Shown: positions 52,606 to 54,801 of the stretch, piece after piece
Layout: each line of letters starts with the position of its first letter
How positions within the stretch are numbered: position 1 is the stretch's first letter
Source of the DNA: an uncultured Saprospiraceae bacterium
GTDB lineage: Bacteria; Bacteroidota; Bacteroidia; Chitinophagales; Saprospiraceae
Assembly: GCA_937921555.1 (NCBI GenBank)
Contig: CAKZUV010000055.1
Location: 1-61,694 of the forward strand
Direction of reading: 5' to 3'
Length of the DNA stretch: 61,694 nt
Notes under the pieces: model-generated
Told to the model about the DNA's origin: nothing
The model's input: only the letters and a program-made list of their open reading frames with translations
The model's database searches: none
Translations under genes and position numbers: made by a program

Positions 52606-52806
52606 CTTTTTTCTTTTTTAATTCGTTATTTAGACGCAAATATAACGGGAGAGATTAATGTTGGATTGCCGGGAAGTGTTAAGGAATCATTAAATAAAAA
52701 ATGGTAATATTCAGATATATTATTATTTTTACAACAATTACTGATCTTTATTATTGGTTTGGAACTAATAATTGGATTCCTTCCTTAATAATAGCATTCT
52801 TTACCC

Positions 52807-53217
52807 ATGTCTATCCTTTTAGAAAAATCAGAACAAAACAGACTTGCATTTGGTTATTTAAAGGATAAGGAGGTATTCGCTGCGATTATTCATTGTGGGT
52901 ACTATTCTTGCTTTCAAAAAGTATCTTACATTCTAAAAGAATATTATACCAAAGAATGGGACTTAATCCATTTTCAGTTACAGGAACGTAGAAAAGGGAG
53001 TATGCACAAAGAATGTATCAGAGAATTTGTCAGACAATTTCGAGCTAATTTCGGATCAGAAGATGCCGCAGAATTAGATAATCATTTGAAACAGTTAAAG
53101 GCATTAAGAATAGAAGCCGATTACGATGAAACAGAGGTTACTCCAACTATGGTAGATAAAGCAGAAAAATACATGAACAATTTTCATCTGCTTACAAAAC
53201 AAAACTTTAAAGTATGA
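52807..53217 (+). CDS. HEPN-domain protein, candidate toxin of a TAC-like module
   Basis: AAIIHCGYYSCFQKVSYIL, RRKGSMH (Rx4H), LKALRIEADYDE. These are the pattern and spacing of classical HEPN four-helix domains. Confidence 0.7.
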   Translation: MSILLEKSEQNRLAFGYLKDKEVFAAIIHCGYYSCFQKVSYILKEYYTKEWDLIHFQLQERRKGSMHKECIREFVRQFRANFGSEDAAELDNHLKQLKALRIEADYDETEVTPTMVDKAEKYMNNFHLLTKQNFKV

Positions 53218-53687
53218 CAGTCGAAAAATTTATAAGGCAATCCCTGGATAAGATAAGTAATTTGTACCCTGAATATGAATTGTTGTATCAATATAAAAAT
53301 AATTCAGATACACACTTTATCAAAGTGTTAGCGGATAATATTTTAAAAGATAAAAACTTTTCAGATTTGTATTTTGAAATAATGGATAACTTTGACGATA
53401 CTGGAATTGAATCTGAATTGTGTATCCTTGACAATGATGCTTTGATTGAACTTGATCAACCTGAAACAGTTGTAGGTGCTAAGGCTTTGACAATGAATTA
53501 TGAAAACTTTTTTGAAATTCAAGAAAGTATTGATATTTCTACAGTTAATGAAAATACAGGGCTGCTTAATGGAGTGATGCTTTCACCACAAGATAATTTA
53601 AAAATTACTTTTAGTGGAGATGTATTTAAAGGGTCTCCTTTTATAGATTTAACTAATGACGAAAGAAGTTTTGCCATGGCCGCTTAA
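53214..53687 (+). CDS. acidic protein of unknown family, candidate antitoxin with C-terminal extension
   Basis: ATGA start/stop overlap with the HEPN gene. Asp/Glu-rich. No nucleotidyltransferase (MNT) G-S/DxD motif. Ends ...DERSFAMAA. Confidence 0.6.
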   Translation: MTVEKFIRQSLDKISNLYPEYELLYQYKNNSDTHFIKVLADNILKDKNFSDLYFEIMDNFDDTGIESELCILDNDALIELDQPETVVGAKALTMNYENFFEIQESIDISTVNENTGLLNGVMLSPQDNLKITFSGDVFKGSPFIDLTNDERSFAMAA

Positions 53688-53695
53688 ATTAAATT

Positions 53696-54124
53696 ATGAT
53701 TACAGAATCTGCCAAGTCCGGTGTTCAGCTTAAATTTATTCGACTTATAAATTCTCAATTCGAGTGGAATAATTACCTGGAAGATCCTAATGTAAAGGAT
53801 TTACCAGTTAAGTTGGAAGTAACGTATGATGTGAGAGAAAATTTTCTTGATGTACACGTTAGTATTGAAATTGGAAATGAAATATCGGAAAACGATAGTA
53901 ATGATTTTTATCTGGGAGTAGAAATGGTTGGAATATTTGAAAAAGTTGGAATTCCCAAATTATCAGATGAAGAATTTGCTAAGGTGAATGCTGCTGCCAT
54001 TATTTTTCCATATATTAGACAATATATACGAGCAGTATCATTAGACGCAGGTATAGCTCCAATCATTTTACCAATTGTTAATTTTCACACCTGGTACAAA
54101 AATATACAAAGGGAAAATAGCTAA
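53696..54124 (+). CDS. SecB-like chaperone
   Basis: Aligns by eye with E. coli SecB over its full length: VKLEVTYDV / VKLDLDTAS, GVEMVGIFE / EVQQGGIFS, AAAIIFPYIRQYIRAVSLDAGIAPIILPIVNFHTWY / [36 protein letters not shown]. Confidence 0.8.
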   Translation: MITESAKSGVQLKFIRLINSQFEWNNYLEDPNVKDLPVKLEVTYDVRENFLDVHVSIEIGNEISENDSNDFYLGVEMVGIFEKVGIPKLSDEEFAKVNAAAIIFPYIRQYIRAVSLDAGIAPIILPIVNFHTWYKNIQRENS

Positions 54125-54159
54125 ATTTTACCCTACAAATCCTATTTTTGTCAAAAAAA

Positions 54160-54801
54160 ATGGATTCTACAAATACCGACACCGCATTTTACGATCAGAT
54201 ATTTTCGACCGCTCCGGCGTCTGTCCGGGAGCATTTTCTGCGGCAATTGTTTGCGCGGGACGAATTATTCCGGAGTGCTTTCGAAAATTATCTAAATCCG
54301 GCCCCCGTTAATTATGACCTGCCTGTCCTCATTGATAAACTGAACGAGATTTCCCAACGGGTCAAAGCAGAAATCGAAAGTTTTGAGTGGGTAGTGACCG
54401 ACGACGACCCCGAAGCAGATTATCTGGAAGAGATGACCGAAGTGCTGAATGAAAATTTCTTTCTCAATATCACCCCGATGGTTGAGCAGTATTTTCAAAG
54501 TGGTAATTTGCTCCTCGCACTGCGAAATCTCCGGGTACTGGAACTGAGCCTTGACCTCGACTGGAACAAATCAGCTCCTGCACCGCTGGCCGTCCACGGT
54601 CCCGAACTCAACGAAGATATGGTAACCCACGAATTTAATTATCTGCTGGTGTATTTTCATACCGGTATTTTTTCTGATGTTTTATTGCAAAGCGCAAAGG
54701 AACTGGTCAGCAATTTTATCGCCCATCCGGCGGTGCATTATCCGCAGACCGAAGGGTGGAAAGAAATTTTGCAGATGATTGAGGGGCGGTTGCAGGATTA
54801 A
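54160..54801 (+). CDS. hypothetical protein
   Basis: First ATG is at 54160 (listed start 54148 is TTG). Base composition resembles the surrounding chromosome rather than the preceding three genes. No motifs recognised. Confidence 0.55.
   Translation: MDSTNTDTAFYDQIFSTAPASVREHFLRQLFARDELFRSAFENYLNPAPVNYDLPVLIDKLNEISQRVKAEIESFEWVVTDDDPEADYLEEMTEVLNENFFLNITPMVEQYFQSGNLLLALRNLRVLELSLDLDWNKSAPAPLAVHGPELNEDMVTHEFNYLLVYFHTGIFSDVLLQSAKELVSNFIAHPAVHYPQTEGWKEILQMIEGRLQD

What the first reader, a model, noticed from the sequence alone, without database searches (positions are those of the whole stretch)
52807..54124. Candidate tripartite toxin-antitoxin-chaperone (TAC) cassette: HEPN protein / unknown acidic protein / SecB-like chaperone
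Three tightly packed same-strand genes. Gene 1 (136 aa) reads as a classical HEPN four-helix domain, with AAIIHCGYYSCFQ, an Rx4H motif in RRKGSMH, and LKALRIEADYDE. Gene 2 (157 aa) is acidic, belongs to no family I can recognise and lacks the MNT nucleotidyltransferase motifs that normally partner HEPN toxins. Its start overlaps the stop of gene 1 in ATGA. Gene 3 (142 aa) starts 8 nt later and aligns by eye with E. coli SecB along its whole length, including the FPY.R....NF core. Toxin, then antitoxin, then SecB-like chaperone is the gene order of TAC systems such as M. tuberculosis HigB1-HigA1-Rv1957. In those systems the chaperone binds a C-terminal chaperone-addiction extension of the antitoxin. 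The characterised TAC toxins I know of are HigB, MqsR and HicA types. I do not know of a described system that combines a HEPN toxin, a non-MNT antitoxin and a dedicated SecB. The last 60 or so residues of gene 2, which end in FAMAA (ssrA-like), are a candidate addiction/degron tail. By eye the three genes are clearly more AT-rich than lolA on one side and the 214-aa gene on the other. That is consistent with a horizontally acquired cassette.
Basis: partly seen in the sequence, partly recalled or inferred. Interest (0 to 1): 0.85.

Follow-up and report, generated by a model that had tools for sequence, protein, structure and literature searches.

The report
HEPN toxin–antitoxin–SecB chaperone cassette
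Three small, tightly packed genes form a likely "toxin–antitoxin–chaperone" module in which the toxin is a HEPN-type RNA-cutting protein, a toxin type I could not find described for this kind of system; the module recurs as a unit in many uncultured bacteria, but nothing about its activity has been tested.

Summary
Three same-strand ORFs (52807-53217, 53214-53687, 53696-54124) with an ATGA overlap and an 8-nt gap lie in an AT-rich islet (GC 0.31 vs 0.42; GC3 0.22-0.27 vs 0.46-0.53).

- **Gene 3** is SecB-like (Pfam 51 bits). It scores 56 bits against the PADLOC CmdC model, while E. coli SecB scores 20.
- **Gene 1** is a HEPN domain of the AF0298-like HEPN-T type. The model has pLDDT 92 and its best fold match is 2hsb. 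A family profile hits PDB HEPN 9xbd at E=1e-6. H67, R101, D105 and Y106 are invariant.
- **Gene 2** has a novel ~85-aa N-domain, a disordered tail of variable length, and an ssrA-like end. 105 of 127 relatives end in AA, mostly [YFL]x[LM]AA.

The triad recurs in 12 sequence-distinct triad types, at least 8 of them in clearly different gene neighbourhoods.

Best reading: a TAC system that works like CmdTAC or HigBAC, with a HEPN RNase toxin and a chaperone-shielded, ClpXP-labile antitoxin. I found no description of a HEPN-toxin TAC, so I class it as a new variant of a known kind. All activities are inferred. Interest 0.55.

The parts
52606..52806 (.). Divergent lolA / cassette intergenic region, AT-rich, presumed to hold the cassette promoter. 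Includes a tandem 17-nt direct repeat (52766-52782 and 52786-52802) just upstream of the g1 ATG.
   Evidence: 82% mean column identity across 4 syntenic loci, with long invariant blocks. That is better conserved than the cassette proteins. Direct repeat. No Rfam match. Promoter and operator roles are inferred only.
52807..53217 (+). Gene 1: 136-aa HEPN-domain protein (HEPN-T clade, AF0298-like), the predicted RNase toxin.
   Evidence: Pfam HEPN E=0.015 for this protein, and 10 of 15 family members hit HEPN with best E=1.7e-4. Family profile against PDB: 9xbd_A HEPN protein, E=1.2e-6. AF2 pLDDT 92, pTM 0.86. Foldseek top hits are 2hsb, 2q00, 7bxo_F (HepT), 3o10 and 1wol, all HEPN.
53005..53007 (+). 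Codon for His67, an invariant histidine at the start of the helix inserted between HEPN helices 2 and 3. Candidate catalytic 'alternative' His.
   Evidence: Invariant in 15 relatives down to 24% identity. It aligns with the His of 9xbd. Its position matches the alternative His described for AF0298-like HEPN-T proteins and AbiV (PMC3710099).
53107..53124 (+). R101-I-E-A-D105-Y106, the topological equivalent of the HEPN Rx4-6H motif with D in place of H. It lies at the end of helix 84-105, before the loop to the last helix.
   Evidence: R101, D105 and Y106 are invariant. The Pfam HEPN and 9xbd alignments place RNRSDY here. Helix layout. 'D replaces conserved H' in HEPN-T comes from PMC3710099.
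53214..53468 (+). Gene 2, N-terminal ~85-aa domain (predicted alpha-beta-beta-alpha-beta) with no known family. Predicted toxin-binding part of the antitoxin.
   Evidence: 135 representative proteins match at E<=1e-3, nearly all over query residues 1-~90 only. Y25 and H34 are invariant. No Pfam, PDB-sequence, PADLOC, NCBIfam or PHROG hit. AF2 pLDDT is 56-76. Weak Foldseek matches include MntA 6m6w_A at E=0.04.
53469..53669 (+). Gene 2, variable and predicted-disordered linker/tail. Candidate chaperone-addiction (ChAD) region.
   Evidence: pLDDT <50 for residues 76-157. Tail length ranges from 14 to 138 aa (median 63) across the family, with little sequence conservation. Seven aromatic residues lie in the window's tail.
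53670..53687 (+). Gene 2 C-terminal FAMAA plus stop codon. An ssrA-like candidate ClpXP degron.
   Evidence: 8 of the 9 aligned triad loci end in (F/V/Y)AMAA; L019 ends in LAKAA. 105 of 127 full-length family members end in AA, against a chance expectation of 0.0025, and 65 of those 105 fit [YFLW]x[LMI]AA. CmdA ends in LAA/AA and Mtb HigA1 in VA, and both are experimentally shown ClpXP degrons.
53696..54124 (+). Gene 3: 142-aa SecB-like chaperone of the TAC (CmdC-like) type.
   Evidence: Pfam SecB 51 bits, E=1.8e-13. PADLOC PD-T4-9_C 56 bits, E=8e-16, against 20 bits for E. coli SecB. Below all NCBIfam SecB equivalog cut-offs. In every complete locus fetched it lies directly downstream of g1-g2.

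Best explanation
The three genes form one tripartite toxin-antitoxin-chaperone (TAC) module.

**Components**
- Gene 1 is a HEPN-fold toxin, most likely a metal-independent RNase. Its active site probably uses invariant H67 with invariant R101 (plus D105/Y106), as proposed for AF0298-like HEPN-T proteins.
- Gene 2 is the antitoxin. Its acidic N-terminal ~85-aa domain binds and blocks the toxin. Its long disordered tail is the chaperone-addiction region, and the last residues (FAMAA-COOH) mimic the ssrA tag and direct it to ClpXP.
- Gene 3 is a dedicated SecB-like tetramer that wraps the tail, hides the degron and keeps the antitoxin soluble and stable.

**Trigger**
When the chaperone is titrated away, the antitoxin is degraded and the HEPN RNase is released, arresting translation. 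By analogy with CmdTAC and HigBAC, the titrating agent is most plausibly newly made, unfolded phage structural proteins, and the outcome is abortive infection.

**Shown here**
- Gene order, tight coupling and co-inheritance of the triad.
- The HEPN fold and the set of conserved residues.
- CmdC-like SecB identity.
- A disordered, variable tail with a conserved ssrA-like end.

**Inferred**
- RNase activity and toxicity.
- Which partner neutralises which.
- Chaperone binding and ClpXP dependence.
- The phage trigger.
For: **Architecture**
- ATGA overlap and 8-nt gap.
- The same order and tight spacing in all loci.

**Co-inheritance**
- The triad occurs in 12 sequence-distinct types. At least 8 have clearly different flanking genes: lolA/desaturase; urocanase/ankyrin; MmeI RM; FA hydroxylase; pgk-gap/RNase R; DUF4240/oxidoreductases; lpxC-lpxA-ABC; AsnC/response regulator; protein kinase. 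The remaining contigs are too short to show neighbours.
- The three proteins co-diverge: identity to the window copies is 43-81% for g1, 24-66% for g2 and 27-77% for g3.
- Distant g2 relatives picked blind from an exhaustive search all had a g1 relative upstream (E 1e-15 to 1e-19). All had a SecB-like gene downstream, including one that is truncated by the contig end.

**Toxin**
- HEPN by fold and by profile.
- Invariant H67/R101/D105/Y106, matching the alternative active site described in PMC3710099.
- HEPN defence toxins such as AbiV are experimentally shown RNases.

**Antitoxin**
- Net charge -18.
- Folded N-domain plus disordered tail.
- 105 of 127 relatives end in AA, mostly [YFL]x[LM]AA.
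- CmdA (LAA/AA) and HigA1 (VA) ends are proven ClpXP degrons that the chaperone shields.
- CmdA-type antitoxins are likewise 'widely variable'.
- In the TAC systems surveyed, the toxin gene precedes the antitoxin gene.

**Chaperone**
- CmdC model 56 bits against 20 bits for E. coli SecB.
- All six other family members tested also hit the CmdC model.

**Accessory character**
- GC3 is half that of the flanks, and the cassette diverges faster than neighbouring housekeeping genes.
Against: - No experiment exists for any member.
- The window protein's own Pfam HEPN score is below the gathering threshold (15.9 against 22 bits).
- Foldseek E-values are weak (0.026), although probability is 1.0 and TM is 0.61-0.69.
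- The canonical Rx4-6H histidine is missing, so g1 could be a non-catalytic HEPN.
- The g2 model is low-confidence (pLDDT 49).
- No complex could be modelled, so tail-chaperone docking is untested.
- Neighbourhoods are mostly housekeeping. Only one of the loci abuts a restriction system, and no copy was found on viral contigs or plasmids. The defence role therefore rests on analogy.
- Periodic aromatic repeats like those of the HigA ChAD are significant in only 5 of 88 tails, and not in the window's own tail.
Confidence: 0.7

Rival explanations
1. Same tripartite module, but it is not an anti-phage system. It would act as a stress-responsive or addiction-type TAC, as first proposed for M. tuberculosis HigBA-Rv1957. 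Proteotoxic stress such as heat or unfolded proteins would occupy the chaperone and release the toxin to slow growth, or the cassette would simply persist as a selfish element.
For: - The neighbourhoods are mostly housekeeping genes, not defence islands.
- No copies were found on viral contigs or plasmids.
- The cassette sits at the same locus in at least three diverged Saprospiraceae lineages, consistent with long-term residence.
- TACs were originally described as stress-responsive (PMC3581621).
Against: - All three TACs tested for phage defence (CmdTAC, MqsRAC, HigBAC) protect against phage.
- The cassette proteins diverge faster than neighbouring genes, and the tail is hypervariable, as expected under an arms race.
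- One locus abuts an MmeI restriction enzyme.
Confidence: 0.25
2. The gene 2 N-terminal domain is a degenerate minimal nucleotidyltransferase (MNT). On this reading the cassette descends from a HEPN-MNT (type VII) pair whose antitoxin lost AMPylation activity, now neutralises by binding, and acquired a ChAD tail and a SecB partner.
For: - Foldseek on the g2 model returns the MNT antitoxins 6m6w_A (E=0.04, prob 0.89, 22% identity), 6m6v_A, 7ae2_B, 5yep_A and 7aer_A among its hits.
- HEPN-T proteins normally pair with MNT (PMC3710099).
- The beta-hairpin 'YQYK..SDTHFIKV' sits where MNTs carry GS...DxD. This last point is my inspection only.
Against: - The model is low-confidence (pLDDT 49; N-domain 56-76).
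- TM-scores are low (0.27-0.34), and equally good hits go to Jag/KhpB N-domains, BolA and KH domains.
- None of 39 family members hits any nucleotidyltransferase Pfam family, and the family profile hits no MNT in PDB.
- Only Y25 and H34 are invariant, with no G-S or DxD motif.
Confidence: 0.2
3. Roles are not as assumed. The HEPN protein would be catalytically dead and serve as an RNA-binding or adaptor/regulatory subunit, while the gene 2 N-domain (or the g1-g2 complex) is the effector, kept in check by rapid ClpXP turnover and the chaperone.
For: - The canonical Rx4-6H histidine is replaced by Asp.
- HEPN domains lacking the motif can be non-catalytic (PMC3710099).
- In CmdTAC the toxin alone is not toxic and needs the 'antitoxin' to fold, so simple role assignments can mislead.
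- The g2 N-domain has unknown function and carries an invariant Tyr and His.
Against: - H67, R101, D105, Y106, K7, H29 and Q37 are invariant down to 24% identity. That pattern is typical of an active site rather than a scaffold.
- The H67 + R101 arrangement is the documented alternative HEPN site.
- In all characterised TACs the partner carrying the degron and ChAD is the antitoxin.
- g2 is strongly acidic, as is usual for antitoxins of nucleic-acid-targeting toxins. This last point is general knowledge.
Confidence: 0.1
4. Gene 3 is the organism's general export chaperone SecB, and its two upstream neighbours are unrelated genes that happen to be adjacent.
For: Pfam SecB match above the gathering threshold. 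27% identity to E. coli SecB over 98 residues, including the FPY.R...NF core.
Against: - In every complete locus fetched, g3 follows g1-g2 regardless of the surrounding genes.
- It scores 47 bits or less against NCBIfam SecB equivalogs, whose cut-offs are 103-277 bits.
- It fits the TAC chaperone model far better than E. coli SecB does.
- It has foreign composition.
- It ends where the acidic C-terminal tail of E. coli SecB begins.
- Close g1 relatives, and therefore this triad, were found in only 4 species representatives in a pattern-limited scan. g3 itself was not scanned against the genome collection.
Confidence: 0.03

Closest known systems
CmdTAC (PD-T4-9) of E. coli ECOR22 / O112ab:H26 (Vassallo 2022, 2024; Mets 2024)
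   Same: - Toxin, then antitoxin, then SecB-like chaperone, in one tight operon.
- The chaperone matches the CmdC model: PADLOC PD-T4-9_C, 56 bits.
- The antitoxin has a small folded N-terminus, a long disordered and hypervariable tail, and an ssrA-like ...AA C-terminus. CmdA ends in LAA and is degraded by ClpXP unless shielded by CmdC.
   Different: - The toxin is a HEPN-fold protein, not an ADP-ribosyltransferase. g1 and g2 give no PADLOC hit.
- The antitoxin N-domain is a different, unclassified alpha/beta domain, whereas CmdA has two N-terminal helices.
- The host range is Saprospiraceae (Bacteroidota) and metagenomic relatives, and the cassette is chromosomal rather than prophage-borne.
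- No trigger is known.
M. tuberculosis HigB1-HigA1-Rv1957 and E. coli HigBAC / MqsRAC (classical TAC systems)
   Same: - Gene order.
- A dedicated SecB-like chaperone.
- A C-terminal ChAD extension on the antitoxin, ending in an aliphatic ClpXP degron (Val-Ala in HigA1).
- The modular combination of a TA pair with a chaperone.
   Different: - Classical TAC toxins are RelE/HigB, MqsR or HicA RNases, and their antitoxins are HTH/Xre, MqsA or HicB DNA-binding proteins.
- Here the toxin is HEPN, and the antitoxin has no detectable DNA-binding domain.
AF0298-like HEPN-T proteins (PDB 2hsb; Pfam PF05168; 'UPF0332') and PDB 9xbd
   Same: - Best fold match is 2hsb and best sequence-profile match is 9xbd (E=1.2e-6).
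- Same motif variant: the Arg is kept, Asp replaces the motif His (R-x3-D-Y), and a second conserved His lies in the helix 2-3 insert.
- One relative is labelled 'UPF0332 family' by JGI.
   Different: - Those proteins are typically solitary, or paired or fused with MNT nucleotidyltransferases, or next to R-M operons. None is reported with a SecB chaperone.
- g1 has a distinctive invariant H29-C-x-Y-Y helix-2 signature.
HEPN-MNT (HepT-MntA) type VII toxin-antitoxin systems
   Same: - A HEPN RNase toxin next to a small alpha/beta antitoxin.
- HepT structures are among the fold matches of g1 (7bxo_F, 6m6w_D, 8yuf).
- MntA structures are among the weak matches of g2.
   Different: - g2 has no nucleotidyltransferase motifs and no profile match, so neutralisation by AMPylation is not expected.
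- The gene order is toxin first.
- A third chaperone gene and a degron tail are present.
AbiV (Lactococcus abortive-infection HEPN RNase)
   Same: - A HEPN defence toxin grouped with AF0298-like proteins because it shares the alternative conserved His.
- The R/H pair in a flexible inter-helix segment is needed for rRNA cleavage. That segment resembles g1's basic RRKGSMH loop.
   Different: - AbiV is 201 aa and is neutralised by an RNA (type III), with no protein antitoxin or chaperone.
- I detected no direct sequence match between g1 and AbiV.

Membership tests
Toxin-antitoxin-chaperone (TAC) systems | Three-gene operon in the order toxin, antitoxin, SecB-like chaperone, inherited as a unit | tested here: met
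   Overlap of -4 nt and gap of 8 nt. The same order holds in 12 sequence-distinct triad types.
Toxin-antitoxin-chaperone (TAC) systems | Chaperone belongs to the SecB family and is of the specialised TA type, not the housekeeping type | tested here: met
   Pfam SecB 51 bits. PD-T4-9_C 56 bits against 20 bits for E. coli SecB. Below the NCBIfam SecB cut-offs.
Toxin-antitoxin-chaperone (TAC) systems | Antitoxin carries a C-terminal intrinsically disordered chaperone-addiction (ChAD) extension | tested here: inconclusive
   Residues 76-157 have pLDDT <50, and the tail is variable in length and sequence. This is consistent with a ChAD, but disorder is only predicted and binding to g3 was not modelled.
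Toxin-antitoxin-chaperone (TAC) systems | C-terminal protease degron on the antitoxin (AA/LAA/VA, ClpXP) in the ClpXP-dependent TACs | tested here: met
   FAMAA-COOH in the window. 105 of 127 relatives end in AA, and 65 of those 105 fit [YFLW]x[LMI]AA. Function as a degron was not tested.
Toxin-antitoxin-chaperone (TAC) systems | Toxin is growth-inhibitory, and neutralisation needs both antitoxin and chaperone | not testable with these tools
   Needs expression assays.
HEPN superfamily (HEPN-T, PF05168, AF0298-like) | All-alpha HEPN helical-bundle fold | tested here: met
   AF2 pLDDT 92 with six helices. The top Foldseek PDB hits are HEPN proteins, with 2hsb at TM 0.61/0.65 and 2q00 at 0.68/0.75.
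HEPN superfamily (HEPN-T, PF05168, AF0298-like) | Significant sequence-profile match to HEPN | tested here: met
   The window protein alone is sub-threshold (15.9 against 22 bits). At family level, 10 of 15 members hit PF05168, and the family profile hits the 9xbd HEPN protein at E=1.2e-6.
HEPN superfamily (HEPN-T, PF05168, AF0298-like) | Canonical Rx4-6H motif at the end of helix 3 | tested here: not met
   The motif position reads R101-IEA-D105-Y106, so the His is replaced. This is the documented AF0298-type variant with an alternative conserved His, here H67.
HEPN superfamily (HEPN-T, PF05168, AF0298-like) | Endoribonuclease activity | not testable with these tools
   Needs biochemistry.
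HEPN-MNT type VII TA | Partner is a minimal nucleotidyltransferase with GS...DxD motifs that AMPylates the toxin | tested here: not met
   0 of 39 g2 N-domains hit any nucleotidyltransferase Pfam family. There is no PDB sequence hit, and only Y25 and H34 are invariant. There is a weak Foldseek similarity to MntA.
CmdTAC (PD-T4-9) | CmdT ADP-ribosyltransferase toxin | tested here: not met
   g1 has no PADLOC hit and has a HEPN fold.
Housekeeping SecB | Meets the curated SecB equivalog threshold, is broadly present in the lineage in a conserved context, and has an acidic SecA-binding C-terminal tail | tested here: not met
   NCBIfam scores are 47 bits or less against cut-offs of 103-277. g3 is always linked to g1-g2. 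The protein ends at the point where the E. coli SecB tail begins.

The most novel reading that the evidence does not exclude
The cassette represents an undescribed and fairly widespread TAC family (at least ~130 clusters at 50% identity) that captures an evolutionary switch. On this reading a HEPN-MNT-type pair lost enzymatic (AMPylation) neutralisation. It replaced that with a binding antitoxin whose C-terminus copies the host's whole ssrA tag (G-[EN]-x-x-[YF]-[AS]-[LM]-A-A) and whose hypervariable tail acts as a decoy for unfolded phage proteins. The SecB-like chaperone would then be the actual phage sensor, controlling a HEPN RNase with the non-canonical H67/R101 active site.
Probability: 0.2. 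Interest if true: 0.7.

Novelty: new variant of a known kind. Interest (0 to 1): 0.55.

Why it matters
**What it would add to the TAC field**
- TAC systems are an emerging class of anti-phage immunity in which a chaperone acts as the sensor. Only a handful of toxin types are known for them: HigB, MqsR, HicA/RelE-like RNases and the CmdT ADP-ribosyltransferase.
- A HEPN-toxin TAC with a new antitoxin domain would widen the known modularity of the chaperone-sensor principle.
- It would place TAC systems in Bacteroidota.
- It would provide a compact system (136 + 157 + 142 aa) for studying the poorly understood 'alternative-histidine' HEPN active site.

**The ssrA-like ending**
- The near-universal ssrA-like C-terminus gives a simple, testable rule for how antitoxin lability is encoded.
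- The ending could also serve as a search handle for finding further chaperone-gated antitoxins.

**Annotation value**
- The g1 and g2 families carry no usable annotation in Pfam, NCBIfam, PADLOC or PHROGs.
- Defence- and TA-finding pipelines therefore currently miss the system.

Tried and rejected
**Searches that found nothing or little**
1. Single-sequence searches of g2 against Pfam, NCBIfam, PADLOC and PHROGs found nothing. The weak CTD8/ABC-3C hit (E=0.05) was not reproduced across 39 family members and I dismissed it.
2. A profile of the g2 N-domain against PDB sequences gave only a chance-level match to diaminopimelate decarboxylase.
3. The diverse N-domain alignment (A3) was too variable for pattern-based locus scans. 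A closer subset found only 2 metagenome loci.
4. Viral-contig scans with g1 and g2 profiles, a BFVD fold search of g1, and a plasmid tblastn of g1 found no relatives. I therefore have no evidence that the cassette is carried by phages or plasmids.
5. There are no Rfam families in the locus, no tRNA or tmRNA in the window, and no enrichment of sigma-70-like promoters or terminators over shuffles.
6. I found no paper describing PDB 9xbd/9xbc.

**Hypotheses tested and not supported**
7. I tested whether tails carry periodic repeats like those of the HigA ChAD. Only 5 of 88 do (about 1 expected by chance), and the window's tail does not. I did not use this as a family feature.
8. Defence-island context is not supported, because neighbours are mostly housekeeping genes.

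9. I could not obtain the host's own ssrA tag. The statement that Bacteroidota/Chlorobi tags end in YALAA or YAMAA rests on my memory only.
10. I could not measure residue distances in the model because coordinates were not exposed.


Full report
**1. The observation**

The three ORFs are real and lie exactly where stated: g1 52807-53217 (136 aa), g2 53214-53687 (157 aa), g3 53696-54124 (142 aa), all on the + strand.
- The g1 stop and g2 start share ATGA, and g3 starts 8 nt after the g2 stop.
- Cassette GC is 0.31 against 0.42 for the rest of the window.
- Third-codon-position GC is 0.22-0.27 in the cassette, against 0.46-0.53 in lolA, the desaturase, the 217-aa gene and the fructosamine kinase.
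- g2 has net charge -18.
- Upstream lies lolA on the opposite strand. Downstream, 24-36 nt away, lies a conserved unknown gene with host-like composition.

**2. Gene 3**

- Pfam SecB: 51 bits, E=1.8e-13, against a cut-off of 26.
- PADLOC gives PD-T4-9_C, the chaperone CmdC of the CmdTAC defence system, at 56 bits, E=8e-16.
- As a control I scored E. coli SecB against the same model. It reaches only 20 bits, so the model discriminates TAC-type from housekeeping SecB.
- g3 stays far below every NCBIfam SecB equivalog cut-off: 47 bits or less against 103-277.
- It is 27% identical to E. coli SecB over residues 45-142 and ends where that protein's C-terminal tail starts.
- Six further members of the g3 family also hit the CmdC model.

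**3. Gene 1: HEPN membership**

- Alone it gives a sub-threshold Pfam HEPN hit: E=0.015, 15.9 bits against a cut-off of 22, over residues 70-128.
- Fifteen clusters of relatives exist in the 5.8-billion-protein collection. One is labelled 'UPF0332 family' by JGI.
- An AlphaFold model built on them is confident (pLDDT 92, pTM 0.86) and all-helical.
- Its best PDB fold matches are HEPN proteins: 2hsb (AF_0298), 2q00, the HepT toxin 7bxo_F, sacsin HEPN 3o10, 1wol and 1ufb. Probability is 0.8-1.0 and TM up to 0.69, although E-values are only about 0.03-2.
- I added distant relatives found through gene 2 (section 5) to make alignment A5. Ten of its 15 members hit PF05168 (best E=1.7e-4). The family profile hits the PDB 'HEPN domain-containing protein' 9xbd at E=1.2e-6.
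- HEPN membership is therefore supported at family level.

**4. Gene 1: the active site**

- Down to 24% identity the invariant residues are L4, K7, H29, Y32, Y33, Q37, H67, L97, R101, D105 and Y106.
- R101-IEA-D105-Y106 lies at the end of helix 84-105, before the loop to the last helix. That is where the HEPN Rx4-6H motif belongs, and it aligns with RNRSDY of 9xbd.
- The same survey says that AF0298-like proteins and AbiV keep the Arg but use a second, strongly conserved His. That His comes from the insert between helices 2 and 3 and forms an alternative active site (PMC3710099).
- H67, at the start of the inserted helix 66-82, fits this description. The best fold match is AF0298 itself.
The partner Arg, however, is more likely R101 than R62.
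- AbiV is an experimentally shown metal-independent RNase whose R/H pair lies in a flexible inter-helix segment. The basic loop before H67 may therefore still contribute.

**5. Gene 2**

*Architecture*
- No library recognises it.
- Alignment of nine triads shows a conserved N-terminal ~85 residues. After that comes a linker that varies in both length and sequence (whole proteins range from 121 to 171 aa), then a near-invariant C-terminus: (F/V/Y)AMAA in eight and LAKAA in one.
- The AlphaFold model has a moderately confident alpha-beta-beta-alpha-beta N-domain (pLDDT 56-76). Residues 76-157 are below 50, meaning predicted disordered.

*Wider family*
- An exhaustive HMMER search of 1.84 billion representatives with the g2 profile found 135 proteins at E<=1e-3 and 25 at E<=1e-10. 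Nearly all match only over query residues 1-~90.
- Of 127 full-length-like members, 105 end in Ala-Ala, against a chance expectation of 0.0025. Position -3 is L or M in 80 of these 105, and position -5 is Y, F or L in 79. The commonest endings are YAMAA, YSLAA, FAMAA and YALAA.
- YALAA-COOH is the ClpXP-recognised end of the E. coli ssrA tag (PMC7652416).
- In characterised TACs, CmdA ends in LAA/AA and Mtb HigA1 in VA. Both ends are ClpXP degrons, and the chaperone protects the antitoxin by binding its disordered ChAD.
- CmdA-type antitoxins are also reported to be 'widely variable'.
- The g2 architecture is therefore what a TAC antitoxin should look like.

*Origin of the N-domain*
- This is open. 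Weak Foldseek hits include MntA antitoxins (E=0.04), but also Jag/KhpB, BolA and KH domains.
- No nucleotidyltransferase signal exists at sequence level.

**6. Is the triad a unit?**

*Syntenic loci*
- Context look-ups for g1 relatives gave the same three genes, in the same order and with the same tight spacing.
- They occur in the syntenic lolA locus of at least three diverged Saprospiraceae lineages.

*Unrelated neighbourhoods*
- The triad also sits in these unrelated neighbourhoods:
  - urocanase / ankyrin / glutaminase
  - directly after an MmeI-family restriction-modification enzyme
  - FA hydroxylase
  - pgk-gap / RNase R
  - DUF4240 / oxidoreductases
  - lpxC-lpxA-ABC

*Distant g2 relatives*
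- I then picked four distant g2 relatives from the exhaustive search: P0065, P0085, P0147 and P0043.
- All have a g1-like gene upstream (E 1e-15 to 1e-19 against my g1 HMM) that retains the HCxYY helix, the His and the RxxxDY motif.
- All have a SecB-like gene downstream.

*Count and co-divergence*
- In total I fetched 12 sequence-distinct triad types. At least 8 of them have clearly different flanking genes.
- The three proteins co-diverge: identity to the window copies is 43-81%, 24-66% and 27-77%.
- The cassette proteins diverge faster than the neighbouring housekeeping genes. Between syntenic species g2 is 58-65% identical, against 85% for LolA and 88-91% for the desaturase.
- This excludes the housekeeping-SecB reading. 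It also shows that the family is much larger than the four Saprospiraceae species found by the pattern-limited genome scan.

**7. Mechanism**

Taken together, the anatomy matches a TAC. It has a HEPN RNase toxin, an acidic binding antitoxin with a ChAD-like tail and an ssrA-mimic degron, and a CmdC-like chaperone.

By analogy with CmdTAC and HigBAC, the chaperone shields the tail. Competing unfolded clients, such as phage capsid or tail proteins, would displace it. ClpXP would then remove the antitoxin, and the HEPN toxin would arrest translation.

The defence role is the weakest step.
- Only one locus abuts a restriction system.
- Most neighbours are housekeeping genes.
- No copy was found on viral contigs or plasmids.
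- A stress or addiction role therefore remains a serious alternative.

**8. Comparison with what is known**

- The TAC toxin/antitoxin families in the literature I could search are HigBA, MqsRA, HicAB, MqsA-like and HTH-like antitoxin groups (PMC3581621), CmdTA with its ART toxin and RelE/ParE relatives.
- Searches that combined SecB or TAC terms with HEPN returned no paper describing a HEPN toxin in a TAC.
- HEPN toxins are known with MNT antitoxins (type VII) and in Abi systems, but not with SecB.
- I therefore class this as a new variant of a known kind. The operating principle is known (TAC). The toxin class is new for that principle, and the antitoxin domain is new.
- It is not categorically new, because the modularity of TACs is already recognised.

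**9. Scores**

| Item | Score |
|---|---|
| Confidence that this is a TAC-type module with a HEPN toxin and a chaperone-dependent labile antitoxin | 0.7 |
| Interest | 0.55 |

The finding is solid, can be annotated and is directly testable. Specialists would find it useful and moderately surprising, but not field-changing.

Noticed in passing
window 52626-52695: A ~70-nt block next to the lolA start is nearly invariant across four syntenic loci, and is better conserved than the cassette proteins. It contains CAAATATA, which reads TATATTTG on the minus strand and resembles the Bacteroidota -7 promoter element (TAnnTTTG, from memory) for lolA. There is no Rfam match.
   Followed up: partly
window 52766-52802: A tandem 17-nt direct repeat (TAATAATTGGATTCCTT / TAATAATAGCATTCTTT, 20-nt spacing) lies immediately upstream of the g1 ATG, in a stretch conserved across syntenic loci. 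It is a possible operator, but it sits in AT-rich DNA where such matches can arise by chance.
   Followed up: partly
window 54143-54801: The downstream 213/217-aa gene has no hit in Pfam, NCBIfam or PADLOC. It has host-like GC3 (0.51) and is present only in the syntenic loci, so it is not part of the cassette. TATTTTTG (a TAnnTTTG-like element) sits at 54143-54150, right after the g3 stop and 10 nt before ATG 54160, which suggests the gene has its own promoter.
   Followed up: partly
L011 161-2919: In one metagenomic locus the triad lies directly downstream of an MmeI-family restriction-modification enzyme that is split into two ORFs: MmeI_N/MmeI_hel (255 aa), and Mtase/TRD/C (664 aa).
   Followed up: partly
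L024 550-1230 (protein P0085): The tail of this g2 relative carries near-perfect 32-aa repeats (NWLPPINWGTHLDVGVSPD...), reminiscent of the ~30-residue periodic aromatic motifs of the HigA ChAD. Only 5 of 88 family tails have significant internal repeats.
   Followed up: yes
L028 1488-2830 (Candidatus Thiodictyon syntrophicum plasmid pTs417, NZ_CP020371.1): Another apparently unannotated TAC-like triad. Two overlapping hypothetical genes (191 aa and 97 aa) are followed by a 'protein-export chaperone SecB' that matches the CmdC model (45.7 bits). It lies near a PDDEXK nuclease gene. Neither partner has a meaningful PADLOC hit.
   Followed up: partly
PDB 9xbd / 9xbc (external): These are the closest solved sequence relatives of g1, two recent 'HEPN domain-containing protein' entries. 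They differ by Y-to-F in the RNRSDY motif that aligns with g1's RIEADY, which suggests the depositors regard that Tyr as functional. I found no paper in the held library.
   Followed up: partly
window 52807-53217 and 53696-54124: g1 and g3 hit PHROG families of unknown function: phrog_5176 at E=1.3e-5 and phrog_21664 at E=4.7e-9. Some phages therefore encode related HEPN-like and SecB-like proteins, although no viral-contig relative of the triad itself was found.
   Followed up: no
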